Virus record (IMG/VR): IMGVR_UViG_3300050156_000143
Coordinates: 64,001-128,000 of that record
Reading direction: 5' to 3' (one strand)
Source: a virus
Lineage: Duplodnaviria; Caudoviricetes
DNA: 64,000 nt
Shown: positions 3,605 to 15,370 of the stretch, piece by piece
Position numbering within the stretch: position 1 is the first letter of the stretch
Layout of the letters: each line of letters opens with the position of its first letter
Notes under the pieces: generated by a model
What the model was told of the DNA's origin: nothing
Database searches by the model: none
Seen by the model: the letters and a program-made list of their open reading frames with translations, nothing else
Translations under genes and position numbers: made by a program

Positions 3605-4414
3605 TCAAACTGCTATTGGAAACTGTATCTTCGGGTGATACACATAGTTTTCTAACTTGAAATCATCCCATGTAATTTCAAGGTTAGTCAGTTGCTCAAT
3701 GGAAGTCAAATTGTCTGGGACAATGAGTTTGGGCAACGGTAGGGGATCACGGATGAGCCATTCCTTCACGCCATCGAGTTGGTTATGGTAGATGTGAACA
3801 TCGCCACCACTGTAAATCAAATCACCGACATCATATCCACAAATCTTAGCCAAGATGTGAGTCAACGCTGCATAACACACCATGTTAAATGGATGCCCCA
3901 GAGGAACGTCATTACTGCGCATAACCAGTTTACAACTGAGTTTCCCATCGGCCACATAAAATTGAATAAATGAGTGACAAGGTGGCAACTCCATATCACC
4001 CAAATCGGCCACGTTCCAGTAATTGATGATGTGACGCCTTGAGCTTGGATTGTTCTTTAACCCGTCGATCAGATTCGCAATTTGGTCAGTAGTTGTTCCG
4101 TCATAGTTTTTCCAGTACCGCAATTGAACTGGGTAACCTCTACCAATGGTGCCATCTTGGCGAGTCCATTGTCTCCAAATCTTGACGCCATTGTCTTCAA
4201 GAAATTGGGTACTAGAATCTCCCCTAAGATACCAAAATAGTTCAATCAACGCGGTTTTGAACGGGGTGAATTTGGTGGTGCAAATTGGGAAACCATCTTG
4301 CAAGTTCACTCGGTACTCATACCCGAATACCGATTTTGTACCGTTGCCTGTTCTATCACCACGGTCAACTCCATGTGCAAGAACGTGTTTGACCATTTGT
4401 TTTACTTGCTGCAT
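3605..4414 (-). CDS. thyA: Thymidylate synthase
   Basis: DRTGNGT, LPPCH catalytic Cys, RSNDVPLGHPFN, DVHIYHNQ. Confidence 0.97.
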   Translation of the reverse strand: MQQVKQMVKHVLAHGVDRGDRTGNGTKSVFGYEYRVNLQDGFPICTTKFTPFKTALIELFWYLRGDSSTQFLEDNGVKIWRQWTRQDGTIGRGYPVQLRYWKNYDGTTTDQIANLIDGLKNNPSSRRHIINYWNVADLGDMELPPCHSFIQFYVADGKLSCKLVMRSNDVPLGHPFNMVCYAALTHILAKICGYDVGDLIYSGGDVHIYHNQLDGVKEWLIRDPLPLPKLIVPDNLTSIEQLTNLEITWDDFKLENYVYHPKIQFPIAV

Positions 4415-11717: not shown

Positions 11718-12806
11718 ATGAAAATGATCCCAGAAGCTCGACGCAACCCTGACGTCAACATCAAAGACAACTATGGCCACCAAAGTGCGCTAACGCTGCT
11801 AGAAACGATTCCAAAAGCCGACTTAAAAAACTATGGTGTCACAATGACTCAAGAGCCAAAAGTGGGCATCAACCCCAAGTCAGGACATCATTCCACCCCA
11901 ATTGGAATTTATTTTTACCCAGCGGCGTATTACTTGAAGATCATCAAATCCAGGCAAGATTTGCCATATGTCCACGATGCACCATATATCAATGTACTGA
12001 AATTATCAGGGACAATTATCCGGTTATCTAGAATGACACCAACTACGTATACCACGTTGAATAAACGGTTATCTGACTTTGCAGATAAACTTGGACTTCA
12101 ATATAACGAACAATCTGATATCAAACTGTTGGGAGAAAGGTTGTATGACAGTATTAACCAACTTGCTAGGTCACCAAAACATCGAGTAATGAACAGAAAA
12201 ACTAAAGCACCACGAGTGCCAGTCATGTTGAACTACATTTTGCGCAACATTGGGATTGATGTGTTGATTGATGAGCAAGGACATGGAATCATTCATGAAA
12301 ACGAGCCGTCCCAAGGGGTCGCAATTGATCCAACAGCTATTGAAGTTATTGCCAGATACGAAAACAAAAACCAAGAAAAACTTGACTCCCGCGTGATAGC
12401 CACCTTGCGGGCCATGTTTTCAACAACGTCGTTGCCATCGTTCATCGATATAGCAGTATCAGATTTCACCTCGGTTGATGTCAAATCTATTCAAAATAAC
12501 CCAGAAATACAAACCAAAATCGCAAAAAGATTGTTAAAACTTGTCCAACAAGATTCTCAGCAACTTTTACAGCCAGGGTGTGCGGAATTGGCATTTTTAC
12601 TGAGTGATAAGAATTGGTTACTTGCATATGCCCACCAGGGGGTTAACTACAAAGAACTCACAACATCAAAACACCAGATAGGCAAAATCGCATCATCGGT
12701 TTTATCGGCACACATCACCAACCCAGATGACGACAGTGACCCAGTCAATGAGTTAATCGACGCACTTAGTCGGGTCGGTTATTACTGCAAACCGTTCCGC
12801 ATTTAA
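11718..12806 (+). CDS. Putative head-packaged ART-like protein (RRNP family, copy A)
   Basis: TAAATA at 11707-11712, 5 nt before ATG; MKMIPEARRNP; KNYGVTM..KVGINP..GIYFYP; GIDVLID..GIIHENEPSQ. Confidence 0.7.
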   Translation: MKMIPEARRNPDVNIKDNYGHQSALTLLETIPKADLKNYGVTMTQEPKVGINPKSGHHSTPIGIYFYPAAYYLKIIKSRQDLPYVHDAPYINVLKLSGTIIRLSRMTPTTYTTLNKRLSDFADKLGLQYNEQSDIKLLGERLYDSINQLARSPKHRVMNRKTKAPRVPVMLNYILRNIGIDVLIDEQGHGIIHENEPSQGVAIDPTAIEVIARYENKNQEKLDSRVIATLRAMFSTTSLPSFIDIAVSDFTSVDVKSIQNNPEIQTKIAKRLLKLVQQDSQQLLQPGCAELAFLLSDKNWLLAYAHQGVNYKELTTSKHQIGKIASSVLSAHITNPDDDSDPVNELIDALSRVGYYCKPFRI

Positions 12807-12809
12807 CCC

Positions 12810-13520
12810 GACACATGCACCAAAATGGTGCATCGCGGAACCCCGGTCACTGTCTCTTACACGACACGCATTTTCTTTGTAAAATTTCAACTTTTGTCAA
12901 CCGGTTTTACAAAACTTTACATGCGGGTGTCTGTATTTTTTCAAAAAATTTTTGTCATCATTGTGCAAATTCATGAGCCGATTTCCAGGTCGTTGGGTGA
13001 ATTTTGGAACTGATGAGGGACATTGTCTTCGCTATGATTTTTTCCCGGTTTCTTAAAAAACTTCCTTTTCCTGATTTGTTTTTGGTGAAGCGAACTCGTG
13101 AGCGTAGCGATCGAGGGCGATTTGCCAAAAACTGGGCGAGCGACTTGTTCGCTTGACCGATAACCTATAAATTTCATAGGTGTTTTTTTGCCTTTAATTT
13201 CACCGGGAAAAATTTTGGGAAATACATCTATCACTCGTATCACTCGTTTTTTGGCCGTTTCTGGAAAAATTTCATTCAAAATGAAGAAATCGACAGAAAA
13301 CACCAGAAAAAAAGTGGACGCACTTATGGCCTATTCGGAATTCAATCGGCACACCAAGGTTCCCAACAAAATGTTAAACACTATTGAATTCATTGATAGA
13401 AACAATGAAAACATCCAAATGCAAGCATTTGTCTGAGAAATTTGTGAACATTCACTGCACTACGTTTCGTTCATTTATCACAAATTTCAAATTTATAATA
13501 TTAAAATTTATAAGGAAGAA
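12810..13520. other. Non-coding island with inverted repeats, A/T tracts and AT-rich stretch; candidate replication origin
   Basis: No convincing ORF; IRs 12815-12833 and 13437-13447/13478-13488; TATCACTCG twice at 13229-13246; A/T-only 13489-13513. Confidence 0.4.
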
Positions 13521-14024
13521 AGTACAGACGTAAGACGGCACTCACGCCTTTCTCGTAAGCGGGAGCCTTGATAGGCCCGGTTAGTGCTTCTATTGCGTCT
13601 CGGTTTTGTCGATCAGACAATCTGTGTGTGTTTCTACGCATCGTTGAACTTGGAATCCACCAAGGTAACATATGATTCAATATGTTCCGACTTGCCCTCA
13701 CAGCCCGCGCGGTGTCCCGCTTGACGTTTTCTCTCCTTCGCCACAACCTTAAACGATCCTACCAATTTCTAGTTATTTTGTATTCATCGCGCCAATAATC
13801 CCATCGAACTACTGCAAACAAAATAACTTTACTTTCGATCTCTACATAACCTCACGATTATGTACGCCCATTACCTAGGGGAGGACAGATATTGCCCCGG
13901 CTAAACATTGATAGTATTGTTTTTCATATTGAAACAACCTGATATCTCCGTTTACGAATCCTAATTGATTCACAGCGGCCAATGACTTAATCTACAGAGA
14001 GGGGTGAGTGATGCCCCGAACTTG
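13520..14024 (-). ncRNA. Candidate structured non-coding RNA of about 500 nt, family unknown
   Basis: TAAATA at 14025-14030 points into it; many stems including an 11-bp helix crossed by a 6-bp helix; no SD-supported ORF. Confidence 0.4.
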
Positions 14025-14030
14025 TATTTA
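14025..14030 (-). promoter_or_regulatory. Late promoter TAAATA with no downstream CDS
   Basis: GGTTAAATACAAG context like the other late sites. Confidence 0.55.
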
Positions 14031-14062
14031 ACCATCTTTTTCAGATTGTGTCAAACGTTTTT

Positions 14063-15370
14063 TTACAAACTGTACAGCCCGTTCCGTAAAATCGATGCTA
14101 AGAGAATGTGTCCACTTTCGTTTGGGTGAAGCCCATCTGTGCTATATGCGGTGTTCCACTGATAATTGCTGTTTTGCGTCACATCGTTTCCCAAGAACAG
14201 TCCGATATTTCTCATGTTGATATATGTAGTAACGTCTGTTCCTGCTCGTGTGTCGAACATTTGGTTCAACAAATCGAGGGTGCCCCCGAGTCCACAGCCA
14301 GACTGTGGTGTTAGCCCGTCTGTTGATGTTCTGTTTAATACAGATGGTCGATGAATGACAATTGGGAGGCCACCTGGTGCTTGTCCCGCGACCCGCACAG
14401 TGTCCCATAATGTTTTGCTAGAAGAATACACTAAATCTGCTAAGGTCTGTCCACCGCTGAACCCGATATTGTTGATTCCGTACTCTTCGACATACGTGTT
14501 TGCATATTTGGCAATAGTAGACAATCTGGCTAATGCGGTGCCATCAATGTTCCAGGCGGTTGAAACTCCCCCACTGCATCCAGTGTTGCACCCAGCAATG
14601 GCAACATTCGTATTTAAATCCGTTTGGAACAACGCACGATCAAAATATGACCCGCCGCCGATATTTGGCCTAGAGGTTGAACCCACTCCCTCCACGATCG
14701 AATCACCGATTCCGAGCACCGATCGCTTATCTCCCCCCGCGAATGTCCCCACCACTCTGACACAATTCCACAGTACGGGCGAATTTGATACTGACCCAGA
14801 CCACGTAAACCCAGCGTCGCCAGTTGATAGATTAGTTACGAATCCCGCCGCTGGGTCGTATTCTAAACAGTATAATGTGCCGCTGCCCGATACCATACCC
14901 GGACAAGTTATCGTCTTCCCCCCTACACTCGCGGTTGTTTCCACGGTGACTACAATCCGAGTTCCCCTGGGGATCACTCCATCCGTTAACCCCAATTGAG
15001 ATGGGGTAATGACGTCAGACAATAATTCGATGTCGCCGGGGTTAACGGTTAGCGAGGCTGATCCCCCCCACGTTGCTAAAACTGATGGTTTTCCAACACA
15101 TTTAATCCACACACGGCGAGTTACTGGGTTCGATGCGTTAACTGTGCGATCAGTGCTGATGTACCATCCCTGGTCTACCAATCTGATTGTGGACAAATCA
15201 CCCGAACCCACTGTTCCGATAACTCTCGAAGCTCGCACATACCGAGACCCCCCAAGCGAGGCCTCGGATGATGGGATGATATTAGCCCCGGCCAGTGCAT
15301 AACGATAAGGCGACAGCGCAGTCCGCTTGTGGTGATAGTTCCACGACAAGTTAGTTGCACTCAATCTCAT
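14063..15370 (-). CDS. SGNH/GDSL esterase-domain protein, probably virion/tail-associated
   Basis: Blocks GDSIVEG, GCSGG, GINN, DGLHPN; beta-rich N-terminal domain; in a late operon. Confidence 0.8.
   Translation of the reverse strand: MRLSATNLSWNYHHKRTALSPYRYALAGANIIPSSEASLGGSRYVRASRVIGTVGSGDLSTIRLVDQGWYISTDRTVNASNPVTRRVWIKCVGKPSVLATWGGSASLTVNPGDIELLSDVITPSQLGLTDGVIPRGTRIVVTVETTASVGGKTITCPGMVSGSGTLYCLEYDPAAGFVTNLSTGDAGFTWSGSVSNSPVLWNCVRVVGTFAGGDKRSVLGIGDSIVEGVGSTSRPNIGGGSYFDRALFQTDLNTNVAIAGCNTGCSGGVSTAWNIDGTALARLSTIAKYANTYVEEYGINNIGFSGGQTLADLVYSSSKTLWDTVRVAGQAPGGLPIVIHRPSVLNRTSTDGLTPQSGCGLGGTLDLLNQMFDTRAGTDVTTYINMRNIGLFLGNDVTQNSNYQWNTAYSTDGLHPNESGHILLASILRNGLYSL

What the first reader, a model, noticed from the sequence alone, without database searches (positions are those of the whole stretch)
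13520..14030. Late promoter driving about 500 nt of densely base-paired, non-coding sequence: candidate new large ncRNA
Seen: TAAATA (14025-14030, minus) is followed by no SD-supported ORF but by many complementary segments: 13956-60/13967-71, 13843-49/13858-64 (7 bp), 13771-81/13818-28 (11 bp perfect) crossed by 13803-08/13834-39 (6 bp, pseudoknot geometry), 13709-12/13717-20, 13667-73/13680-86 (7 bp), 13649-53/13660-64, 13594-98/13636-40, and a three-way junction closed by 13538-42/13583-87. It ends at the AT-rich edge of the origin-like island. I do not recognise tmRNA, RNase P, 6S or group I/II intron signatures. Inference: an undescribed structured RNA (packaging/scaffold RNA, defence-protein sponge or replication pre-primer).
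Basis: partly seen in the sequence, partly recalled or inferred. Interest (0 to 1): 0.8.

Follow-up and report, generated by a model that had tools for sequence, protein, structure and literature searches.

The report
Twin structured RNA genes, jumbo phage
An uncultured 277-kb T4-like phage carries two diverged copies of a roughly 500-base non-coding RNA gene whose folded core is kept intact by matching base changes. It fits no known RNA family, and its job is unknown, though it may be tied to the genome's two most A+T-rich spots, which lie directly behind it.

Summary
The whole 511 nt does not fold better than shuffles (z = -0.8), so "densely paired" alone proves nothing.

The decisive evidence is a second, inverted, diverged copy of the whole 1.25-kb gene-free element at genome 183,134-184,484.
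- Both copies keep the promoter, a 5' 17-mer, a core of about 100 nt and a 3' hairpin.
- In the core, 27 consensus pairs are all intact in both copies, and 11 of them changed on both sides. None of 300 column shuffles reached this.
- The 5' 17-mer pairs with the 3' end, with one compensating change.
- Strain variants keep pairs only on the minus strand.
- The 81-aa ORF is stopped in copy B.
- A freshwater metatranscriptome contig covers 13814-14009.
- There is no Rfam match and no homologue in ten related phage genomes.

Directly behind each RNA lie the two most A+T-rich 60-nt windows of the genome, then a 354-bp block that is 97.5% identical between the copies.

Verdict: this is a real structured ncRNA restricted to this phage lineage, in two paralogous copies. 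Its function is open: a trans-acting late RNA (favoured) or the pre-primer of an RNA-primed origin. The scan had flagged copy B independently.

The parts
14025..14054 (-). Promoter. The late-type core is TAAATA (14030-14025) inside TGGTTAAATAC, with a -35-like TTGACA (14054-14049) 17 nt before TTAAAT.
   Evidence: Sequence read. Copy B has TTGAAA-N17-TTAAATAC although the spacer has diverged. TTGA[CA]A-N16-18-T[AT]AAAT occurs only 3 times in the genome. TAAATA is depleted three-fold and lies before 52 ORFs. The strict sigma-70 scan does not call it.
13520..14021 (-). Predicted non-coding RNA, copy A, about 500 nt. The start is inferred about 4-5 nt after TAAATA; the end is inferred at the hairpin 13549-13526 plus the U-rich run.
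   Evidence: No conserved ORF. Strain substitutions preserve pairs on this strand only. Contigs from RNA libraries cover 13666-14061, and the true metatranscriptome run X20 covers 13814-14009. The ends are inferred, not mapped.
14002..14018 (-). Conserved 5' 17-mer CGGGGCAUCACUCACCC. Its CACUCAC (14010-14004) is the 5' strand of the end-closing helix.
   Evidence: 16 of 17 nt identical in copy B. The one difference (C in A, G in B) is matched by G versus C in the 3' partner GUGAGUG / GUGAGUC (and sequence).
13721..14001 (-). Variable 5' domain. It holds the 11-bp helix and the candidate pseudoknot, and is not alignable with copy B.
   Evidence: The global alignment is poor here, and copy B is about 100 nt shorter. 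10 of the 11 strain substitutions fall here.
13709..13720 (-). GNNA-capped hairpin GCGG-GACA-CCGC.
   Evidence: Copy B has UCAC-GAAA-GUGA at the equivalent place (L001 3431-3442). All four pairs are different but intact (read from sequence).
13606..13703 (-). Conserved core: outer helix 13703-13699/13626-13622; inner helix 13691-13688/13643-13640; hairpin 1 13686-80/13673-67; hairpin 2 13664-60/13653-49; hairpin 4 13620-17/13609-06. The invariant loops AAUC and GAUU are complementary.
   Evidence: RNAalifold and pair counts over the 27-pair consensus (these helices plus 2 pairs of the GNNA hairpin): 27 pairs, 100% paired in both copies, 11 changed on both sides, slid controls 0-1. Column-shuffle null: -22.05 kcal/mol against a mean of -7.1 (sd 2.8); the maximum in 300 shuffles was 8 compensatory pairs. 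The loop-loop pairing is inferred.
13526..13549 (-). 3' hairpin AGGCGUGAG-UGCCGU-CUUACGUCU followed by a U-rich run. Its GUGAGUG (13545-13539) can alternatively pair with the 5' 17-mer.
   Evidence: Terminator-like call. Copy B has CGUGAG-UCUCA-CUCAUG, with G-U and G-C exchanged (read from sequence). The duplex between the 5' and 3' ends scores -29.7 kcal/mol (A) and -28.6 to -29.6 kcal/mol (B), in the 2.7% and 8.7% tails of genome controls.
13465..13524 (.). A+T-rich patch (83% A+T over 60 nt), including TTCCTTATAAAT (13517-13506, minus strand) and AAATTTATAA twice.
   Evidence: Second most A+T-rich 60-nt window and the most A+T-rich 40-nt window of the 277,516-bp genome. The matching patch of copy B ranks first (60 nt) and second (40 nt). 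The 12-mer occurs only in the two elements.
13437..13488 (.). Perfect 11-bp inverted repeat GAAATTTGTGA / TCACAAATTTC with a 30-nt spacer. The spacer holds the 13-mer CATTCACTGCACT (13449-13461, plus strand).
   Evidence: Copy B has a 14-bp perfect inverted repeat with a 26-nt spacer at the same relative place. The 13-mer is the start of six conserved early-gene leaders.
12885..13238 (.). 354-bp non-coding block, 97.5% identical and inverted relative to genome 183,995-184,345.
   Evidence: One-base indels between the copies and five indels in a strain variant rule out coding. Fold z-scores are -1.6 and -2.1.

Best explanation
The stretch is a gene for a stand-alone structured RNA of about 500 nt, read from the minus strand. 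It is one of two diverged paralogues in this 277-kb T4-like phage. Copy B lies at genome 183,235 to about 183,715 on the plus strand.

Transcription starts a few bases after a late-type TAAATA promoter that also keeps a -35-like hexamer. The RNA closes on itself by pairing its conserved 5' 17-mer with the segment just before its 3' end. At its heart is a conserved three-way junction carrying two hairpins whose invariant loops (AAUC and GAUU) can pair with each other. The arms around this core are free to vary.

Shown here: non-coding status, conservation of the structure, and the strand.

Inferred: the exact ends, late timing of expression, and the function. I think the RNA most likely acts in trans as a stable binding platform for a protein or another RNA during late infection. 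Which partner it binds cannot be told from sequence.
For: - Second copy with collinear conserved blocks.
- Core consensus of 27 pairs, all intact in both copies, 11 of them with compensatory double changes; slid controls gave 0-1.
- Column-shuffle null: 0 of 300 shuffles reached the observed energy or the observed compensation count.
- Hairpin 1 alone has 3 compensatory pairs and hairpin 2 has 1.
- The end-closing helix has one compensatory change, and the duplex energy lies in the 2.7% (A) and 8.7% (B) tails of genome controls.
- Copy B folds at z = -3.0.
- Of ten strain substitutions, five are unpaired and five are paired. All five paired ones keep the pair by wobble on the minus strand, while the three paired on the plus-strand fold all break their pairs.
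- No reading frame is conserved, and the 81-aa ORF has a stop in copy B.
- TAAATA is a real promoter signal in this genome.
- RNA-library contigs lie only on 13666-14061 of the 1.3 kb searched.
Against: - Only two sequences carry the covariation, and the consensus was derived from the same alignment.
- The reverse strand also gives a good consensus fold (-28.45 kcal/mol, 9 compensations). The strand therefore rests on the promoter, the G-U pairs and five substitutions.
- Copy A as a whole folds no better than shuffles (z = -0.8).
- Transcript evidence is thin. It is one 196-nt contig at depth 2.9 in a true metatranscriptome. The other 'RNA' runs are only guessed to be RNA, and one of their contigs runs across the promoter.
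- No homologue was found outside this phage lineage, so selection cannot be tested on a tree.
- A purely trans-acting role does not explain why the two most A+T-rich patches of the genome follow the two copies.
Confidence: 0.6

Rival explanations
1. RNA-primed replication origin. The structured transcript would be a pre-primer, like ColE1 RNA II or the R-loop RNA of T4 oriF/oriG. It would run into the A+T-rich patch, which would act as a DNA-unwinding element. The RNA would stay hybridised there, be cut, and prime leading-strand synthesis in the direction of transcription. The two inverted copies would send forks outward from the 105-kb late-gene segment between them.
For: - The patches directly 3' of the two RNAs are ranked 1 and 2 for A+T content among all 40-nt and 60-nt windows of the 277-kb genome, although their sequences are not alignable.
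- The patch lies at the same distance (about 490-555 nt) from the promoter in both copies, despite internal indels.
- Each patch is joined to a perfect 11-bp or 14-bp inverted repeat with a 26-30-nt spacer.
- A 12-mer found only in these elements lies in or next to each patch.
[quoted passage not shown] T4 origins tend to lie at strand-switch regions, and T4 oriC may need a late promoter (PMC3016281). Copy A lies between convergent genes.
Against: - In T4 the unwinding element lies within about 100 bp of the promoter, and no RNA structure is needed. Here the distance is about 500 nt.
- A late-type promoter is an odd choice for origin firing.
- There is no turn in GC skew at either site.
- No iterons or initiator gene lie nearby.
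- A terminator-like hairpin sits in front of the patch.
- Related phages show no such layout.
Confidence: 0.22
2. A duplicated non-coding spacer with no RNA function. On this view the conserved hairpins act at the DNA level (cruciforms or protein sites), or are left over from a recent duplication and gene conversion in a recombination-prone T4-like genome.
For: - The neighbouring 354-bp block is kept 97.5% identical, most simply by gene conversion.
- A relic of an early-gene leader inside copy A points to recombinational shuffling.
- The reverse strand gives an equally good consensus fold.
- Copy A's overall fold is not better than chance.
Against: - Leftover similarity does not produce 11 compensatory double changes with no broken pair.
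- G-U pairs and wobble-only strain changes point to RNA on one strand.
- The promoter is conserved while its spacer has diverged.
Confidence: 0.1
3. A small protein gene: the 81-aa ORF 13501-13746 or the 35-aa ORF 13875-13982 is translated, and the RNA is simply its mRNA.
For: Both ORFs are open on the transcribed strand. A 27-aa stretch of the 81-aa frame is 59% identical to copy B.
Against: - The same nucleotide block scores in all frames and on both strands.
- In copy B the frame opens only after a stop and has no start.
- The starts are TTG without a ribosome-binding site, and there is no TAAATA-N4-ATG.
- There are no Pfam or PHROG hits.
Confidence: 0.03

Closest known systems
ColE1/pMB1 RNA II pre-primer (from established knowledge, not tested against sequence)
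   Same: A promoter about 500 nt upstream of a candidate initiation region. An untranslated RNA of about 500 nt with specific folded domains. The 3' end of the RNA lies at the region proposed to open.
   Different: No sequence or Rfam relationship. No antisense RNA I-type partner was identified. The host is a T4-like phage with its own replisome. No hybrid formation or RNase H cut has been shown.
T4 oriF(uvsY)/oriG(34) R-loop origins (PMC3016281)
   Same: A promoter plus an A+T-rich downstream element. Several copies per genome. Copy A lies at a strand-switch region.
   Different: T4 uses a MotA-dependent middle promoter, with the unwinding element inside a minimal origin of about 100 bp and no conserved RNA fold. 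Here there is a late-type TAAATA promoter, a distance of about 500 nt and a conserved RNA structure.
Large orphan structured RNAs of bacteria and phages (GOLLD, ROOL, OLE, HEARO; Rfam; PMC12286853, PMC5737381)
   Same: Several hundred nucleotides long, multi-domain, non-coding, phage-associated, and with a job unknown at discovery.
   Different: No covariance-model match even at E up to 10. Not next to tRNA genes. Known so far from one phage lineage only. Nothing is known about oligomerisation.
The Polynucleobacter-1-like RNA gene of the same genome (about 250,997-251,689; earlier follow-up e1-5382651)
   Same: A gene-free gap in the same phage holding a structured RNA of about 480 nt.
   Different: My core model finds only copies A and B in the genome. 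RF01718 does not match either copy. That RNA is reported in dozens of related phages, whereas this one is in none of the ten I searched.
Promoter-early stem-loop (PeSL) cassettes of T4-type phages (recalled from the literature, not read here)
   Same: Repeated non-coding promoter-plus-hairpin units that drive recombination. This genome has six early promoter-leader repeats, and copy A holds a 13-nt relic of one.
   Different: PeSLs are about 50-100 bp and sit before genes. The present element is 1.25 kb with its own structured RNA and has a different promoter type.

Membership tests
Any Rfam 15 family (tmRNA, RNase P, 6S, group I/II introns, GOLLD, ROOL, OLE, HEARO, Polynucleobacter-1 and others) | Covariance-model score at or above the family's gathering threshold | tested here: not met
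   0 matches at gathering threshold in the whole window. At E up to 10 (copy A) and up to 5 (copy B), only eukaryotic snoRNA and miRNA noise appeared, at 14-23 bits against thresholds of 43-86.
tRNA / tmRNA | Cloverleaf or tmRNA detected by ARAGORN | tested here: not met
   No gene in the window. The genome's seven tRNAs lie at 171.1-173.7 kb.
T4 oriF/oriG-type R-loop origin | A+T-rich DNA-unwinding element downstream of a promoter | tested here: inconclusive
   The A+T-rich patches rank 1 and 2 in the genome, but they lie about 500 nt from the promoter rather than inside a 100-bp unit.
T4 oriF/oriG-type R-loop origin | MotA-dependent middle-mode promoter | tested here: not met
   The promoter is TGGTTAAATAC with a TTGACA-like -35, which is the late-type core of this phage. 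No MotA box was seen by eye.
T4 oriF/oriG-type R-loop origin | Persistent RNA-DNA hybrid used as primer | not testable with these tools
   Needs DRIP or S1 mapping, or replication-intermediate mapping.
ColE1 RNA II-type pre-primer | Untranslated folded RNA of about 550 nt whose 3' end lies at the origin | tested here: inconclusive
   The geometry fits (about 500 nt; a folded core with covariation; the 3' end at the A+T-rich patch), but no origin activity is known.
ColE1 RNA II-type pre-primer | Antisense RNA I control and RNase H processing | not tested
   No antisense promoter was sought systematically. A TATAAT lies on the plus strand inside the patch (sequence), but it was not followed up.
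Protein-coding gene | A reading frame conserved between the paralogues | tested here: not met
   Six-frame comparison: similarity appears in all frames, the frame is broken in copy B, and there are no Pfam or PHROG hits.
Structured RNA (generic criterion) | Base pairs maintained by compensatory change beyond chance | tested here: met
   11 of 27 pairs changed on both sides with none broken. 0 of 500 pair shuffles, 0 of 300 column shuffles and slid controls of 0-1 reached this. Caveat: only two sequences.
Structured RNA (generic criterion) | Folding energy below dinucleotide shuffles | tested here: inconclusive
   Copy A z = -0.80. Copy B z = -3.02. Core alone: -0.25 (A) and -1.40 (B).

The most novel reading that the evidence does not exclude
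The two inverted elements are RNA-primed replication origins of a T4-like jumbo phage. Each would use a ColE1 RNA II-like folded pre-primer, made from a late-type promoter, that invades the genome's most A+T-rich patch. The two origins would bracket the 105-kb late-gene segment and fire outward. The 354-bp near-identical inverted blocks would keep the two origins in step by gene conversion and could invert the segment between them.
Probability: 0.2. Interest if true: 0.8.

Novelty: new variant of a known kind. Interest (0 to 1): 0.6.

Why it matters
Large structured RNAs of phages are rare, and almost none has a known job. This one comes with an internal control: two paralogues diverged enough to show covariation. 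It also has a clear architecture (closed ends, a junction core with complementary loops, variable arms) and a striking fixed neighbour, the genome's two most A+T-rich patches.

If the RNA is a pre-primer, it would be the first folded origin RNA in the T4 superfamily, and it would make origin choice in jumbo phages testable. If it acts in trans, it is a new late-infection RNA whose partner could be fished out with the conserved core.

Its restriction to one uncultured lineage limits how widely the result applies.

Tried and rejected
- **Rfam:** gathering and permissive searches of both copies found nothing.
- **Cultured phages:** DNA and megablast searches found no match.
- **Synteny through the flanking GDSL esterase:** its homologues (37-50% identity) sit in unrelated small phages with P22-like coat or portal genes or a family A DNA polymerase, so they were no help.
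- **The other flank:** it has no close relatives in IMG/VR.
- **Exact-pattern scans:**
  - The core 20-mer gave 0 hits in IMG/VR and 5 chance hits inside coding-like sequence in JGI metagenomes.
  - A 27-mer from the 5' domain gave 0 hits in GTDB genomes and in IMG/VR.
  - The relaxed 5' 17-mer and hairpin-2 patterns gave 38 loci. The only ones scoring with the covariance model (28 bits) lie inside a 759-aa ORF with hairpin 1 unpaired, so they are chance hits.
- **Related phages:** the covariance model (ten genomes; major capsid protein 71-77% identical) and the whole 1.25-kb element as DNA (five of them) found nothing.
- **Same layout in relatives:** their gene-free gaps are tRNA clusters or promoter regions.
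- **Third gene-free gap of this genome (132,139-132,830):** it shares only hairpin 2 (17 of 18 nt with copy B) and does not fit the core.
- **GC skew:** it follows the direction of transcription and shows no turn at either element.
- **Strict sigma-70 scan:** it does not call the promoter.
- **Sequencing runs:** runs holding small shares of the sequence words that I did not lay are not used as evidence of habitat or expression. Parts of the stretch without RNA-contig cover (12700-13665) are not evidence of silence.
Full report
**Setting.** The window is bases 64,001-128,000 of a single 277,516-bp virus record with terminal repeats. The record encodes a Gp23-type major capsid protein, gp46/47-like nuclease subunits and seven tRNAs. 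Earlier notes of this scan call it an uncultured T4-like jumbo phage from leaf litter. Consistent with that, the DNA runs that hold the stretch are leaf-litter and freshwater metagenomes. The finding lies in a 1,256-bp stretch (12807-14062) between two convergent genes: a hypothetical plus-strand gene ending at 12806, and a minus-strand GDSL/SGNH esterase gene (14063-15370, Pfam PF13472).

**The observation.**
- TAAATA is at 14030-14025 on the minus strand.
- A terminator-like hairpin (13549-13526) with a T-rich run precedes the A+T-rich edge.
- Rfam gives nothing at gathering thresholds over the whole window, and only noise at E up to 10. ARAGORN finds no tRNA or tmRNA.
- The overall fold of 13520-14030 is no better than dinucleotide shuffles: z = -0.80 on the minus strand and -0.95 on the plus strand.

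The list of helices is accurate, but on its own it is not evidence.

**The promoter.** TAAATA occurs 85 times in the genome against about 243 expected. 52 of the 85 sites lie just upstream of an ORF of at least 80 aa, about half of them as TAAATA-N4/5-ATG, and no -35 consensus appears among them. It is therefore a genuine late-type promoter core. Here it is embedded in TGGTTAAATAC, with TTGACA 17 nt upstream of TTAAAT. The strict sigma-70 scan does not call this site because the -10 is poor. This phage's typical early promoters look different: TTGACA-N17-TACACT followed by a conserved leader, CATTCACTGCACTGAcGCAGACAA, found at six loci.

**A second copy.** A self-search of the genome shows that the whole gene-free element has a paralogue in inverted orientation at genome 183,134-184,484 (L001 3134-4484, plus strand). 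The blocks are collinear:
- 12885-13238 matches 184,345-183,995 (354 bp, 97.5% identical).
- 13637-13705 matches 183,515-183,447 (77% identical).
- 14002-14018 matches 183,287-183,271.

Copy B begins after a strong terminator with TTGAAA-N17-TTAAATAC. The combination TTGA[CA]A-N16-18-T[AT]AAAT occurs only three times in the genome, and two of those are these elements. Because the 17-nt spacers differ completely, the two hexamers appear to be under selection.

**Not coding.** A six-frame comparison of the two copies finds similarity only where the nucleotides are conserved, and it appears in several frames and on both strands. The frame of the 81-aa ORF (13501-13746) opens in copy B only after a stop and has no start there. 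The 354-bp block changes frame through 1-nt indels. None of the ORFs has a Pfam or PHROG match.

**Conserved structure.** In a gap-free 76-nt alignment, hairpin 1 (13686-80/13673-67) reads AACAUAU/AUAUGUU in copy A and GGUAUAU/AUAUACC in copy B. Hairpin 2 (13664-60/13653-49) reads CUUGG/CCAAG against CCUGG/CCAGG. That is four double changes with every pair intact. RNAalifold on about 150 nt adds:
- an outer helix, CUGUG/CACAG in A against CAGUG/CACUG in B;
- an inner helix, GUCG/CGAU against GUUG/CAAU;
- a further hairpin in which all four pairs differ.

In total there are 27 pairs, 100% paired in both copies, and 11 of them changed on both sides. Three controls agree:
- 0 of 500 pair shuffles reach any of the measures, and sliding the partners by 1-3 columns leaves 0-1 compensations.
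- Re-deriving a consensus from 300 column-shuffled alignments gives a mean of -7.1 kcal/mol (sd 2.8, best -17.4) and at most 8 compensations, against the observed -22.05 kcal/mol and 11.

Upstream of the core, a tetraloop hairpin stands at the same place with entirely different stems: GCGG-GACA-CCGC in A and UCAC-GAAA-GUGA in B. The two invariant loops contain AAUC and GAUU, which are complementary. A loop-loop contact is my inference.

**Closed ends.** The 5' 17-mer CGGGGCAU(C/G)ACUCACCC is complementary to GUGAGU(G/C) just before the A+T-rich patch. The single difference in the 17-mer (C in A, G in B) is matched by G and C in the partner. The best duplex between the first 50 nt or so and the last 60 nt or so is -29.7 kcal/mol in A and -28.6 to -29.6 kcal/mol in B (the and windows), and the full-length minimum-energy folds of both copies use it. 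Against 1,315 genome segments of equal length, these energies lie in the 2.7% and 8.7% tails. The same 3' segment can instead form a local hairpin: AGGCGUGAG...CUUACGUCU in A and CGUGAG...CUCAUG in B, with G-U and G-C exchanged. The two pairings exclude each other, and I cannot tell which one is used, or when. Copy B as a whole folds at z = -3.0.

**Strand and natural variation.** Contigs of four public runs were laid on 12700-14200. A freshwater DNA strain covers 13361-14101 with seven substitutions and no indel, whereas its version of the 354-bp block carries five indels. Ten substitutions across the runs fall at 13789-13983, in the 5' domain that is also not alignable between the copies. 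None falls in the core or in the closing helix.
- On the minus-strand fold, five of the ten are unpaired. The five paired ones all keep their pair by wobble: A-U to G-U, G-U to A-U, C-G to U-G.
- On the plus-strand fold, the three paired ones all break their pairs.

Together with the promoter and a G-U pair conserved in both copies, this places the RNA on the minus strand. The consensus fold alone cannot decide the strand, because the reverse complement also folds well.

**Expression.** When the whole 1.3 kb was used as the query, runs on record or guessed as RNA held only words from 13500-14060. Laid down, their short contigs cover 13693-13954, 13666-13811, 13946-14061 and, for the one run that is a declared metatranscriptome, 13814-14009. 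This is a weak hint. The depths are 2-5, three of the runs are only guessed to be RNA, one contig runs through the promoter into different upstream sequence, and no coding stretch was laid for comparison.

**What follows the RNA.** Directly 3' of each copy lies an A+T-rich patch: genome 77,465-77,524 and 183,720-183,779. These are the two most A+T-rich 60-nt and 40-nt windows of the whole genome, 4.5 and 5.0 standard deviations above the mean. Their sequences do not align, and part of one seems inverted relative to the other. Both carry TTCCTTATAAAT, a 12-mer found nowhere else in the genome. Both abut a perfect inverted repeat: 11 bp with a 30-nt spacer in A, and 14 bp with a 26-nt spacer in B. 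The patch lies about 490-555 nt from the promoter in both copies, although copy B has a 5' domain about 100 nt shorter and a 3' domain about 100 nt longer. The diverged part of the element then runs on to the 354-bp near-identical block. The block is non-coding and folds moderately (z = -1.6 and -2.1). Its high identity next to diverged flanks is most simply concerted evolution by gene conversion.

**Distribution.** I found no homologue outside this phage and its near-identical strains. The searches were:
- pattern scans of JGI metagenomes, IMG/VR and GTDB genomes;
- the core covariance model against ten large contigs of related phages whose capsid protein is 71-77% identical;
- the whole element as DNA against five of those contigs.

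The relatives' gene-free gaps are tRNA clusters or promoter regions. In its own genome the model finds only copies A and B. A third gap, at 132,139-132,830, shares hairpin 2 with copy B (17 of 18 nt) but not the core.

**Interpretation.** The evidence supports a real, non-coding, structured RNA gene present as two old paralogues. I put that at about 0.8.

For its function I favour a stable trans-acting RNA made late in infection. Its conserved junction would be the binding surface, and its paired ends would protect it. This is an inference from the architecture, and it leaves the A+T-rich neighbour unexplained.

The main rival, at about 0.2, is that the unit is an RNA-primed origin. T4 origins are a promoter plus an A+T-rich unwinding element, they tend to lie at strand-switch regions, and one may depend on late transcription (PMC3016281). 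ColE1 uses a folded pre-primer of about 550 nt (established knowledge). Against this reading are the 500-nt distance, the late-type promoter, the terminator-like hairpin in front of the patch, the flat GC skew and the absence of the layout in relatives.

A duplicated spacer without RNA function (about 0.1) does not account for the compensatory changes. A small protein (about 0.03) is contradicted by copy B.

**Novelty and score.** The RNA belongs to no Rfam family and to none of the families I could test. It is a new example of the known category of orphan large structured RNAs in phages, with an unusual linked DNA feature. Its narrow distribution and the two-sequence basis of the covariation temper the score. 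Interest: 0.6.

Noticed in passing
window 12885-13238 and genome 183,995-184,345 (L001 3995-4345): A 354-bp non-coding block is 97.5% identical in inverted orientation 106 kb apart, while its flanks have diverged. This is probably gene conversion, and it could invert the 105-kb late-gene segment between the copies. A freshwater strain has five indels in the block.
   Followed up: partly
window 11650 (minus) and 60305 (plus); genome 58,058, 163,727, 226,844, 246,844: Six copies of an early promoter-leader unit (a TTGACA-like -35, about 17 nt, TACACT, then CATTCACTGCACTGAcGCAGACAA with a CUGC/GCAG hairpin) stand in front of small genes. This resembles the promoter-early stem-loop cassettes of T4-type phages.
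   Followed up: partly
window 13449-13461 (plus strand): The first 13 nt of that early leader lie inside copy A, in the spacer of the 11-bp inverted repeat and without a promoter. If the RNA ran this far, it would be antisense to six early leaders. Copy B lacks this, so a recombination relic is more likely.
   Followed up: partly
genome 132,139-132,830 (L095 1124-1815): A third gene-free gap next to another very A+T-rich window. It holds a hairpin CCCUGG-UGGAUG-CCAGG that is 17 of 18 nt identical to hairpin 2 of copy B, and a CGGGGCAC word like the 5' motif, but it does not fit the core. It may be another RNA gene.
   Followed up: partly
whole genome: TAAATA is three-fold depleted. About 25 late genes have TAAATA-N4/5-ATG with no ribosome-binding site, which suggests leaderless late mRNAs. 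TATAAT is depleted as well (68 occurrences against about 243 expected).
   Followed up: partly
window 14063-15370 (minus strand): The closest relatives of the GDSL/SGNH esterase (37-50% identity) are in small phages with P22-like coat or portal genes or a family A DNA polymerase, and in Xanthomonas, Sinorhizobium and Pseudomonas phages. None is in the capsid-related jumbo phages. This suggests a horizontally moving tail-accessory gene.
   Followed up: partly
genome 30,177-30,913 and 200,893-201,350: Two further stretches of more than 450 bp without an ORF of at least 70 aa. The first had already been flagged by another reader as a closed multi-domain RNA candidate.
   Followed up: no
L001 3766-3819 (genome 183,766-183,819): A perfect 14-bp inverted repeat, TGATTTATAAGGAA / TTCCTTATAAATCA, around a G+C-rich 26-nt spacer, followed by a terminator-like hairpin (3823-3836). 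It could be a binding site for a dimeric protein, or the true end of RNA B.
   Followed up: no
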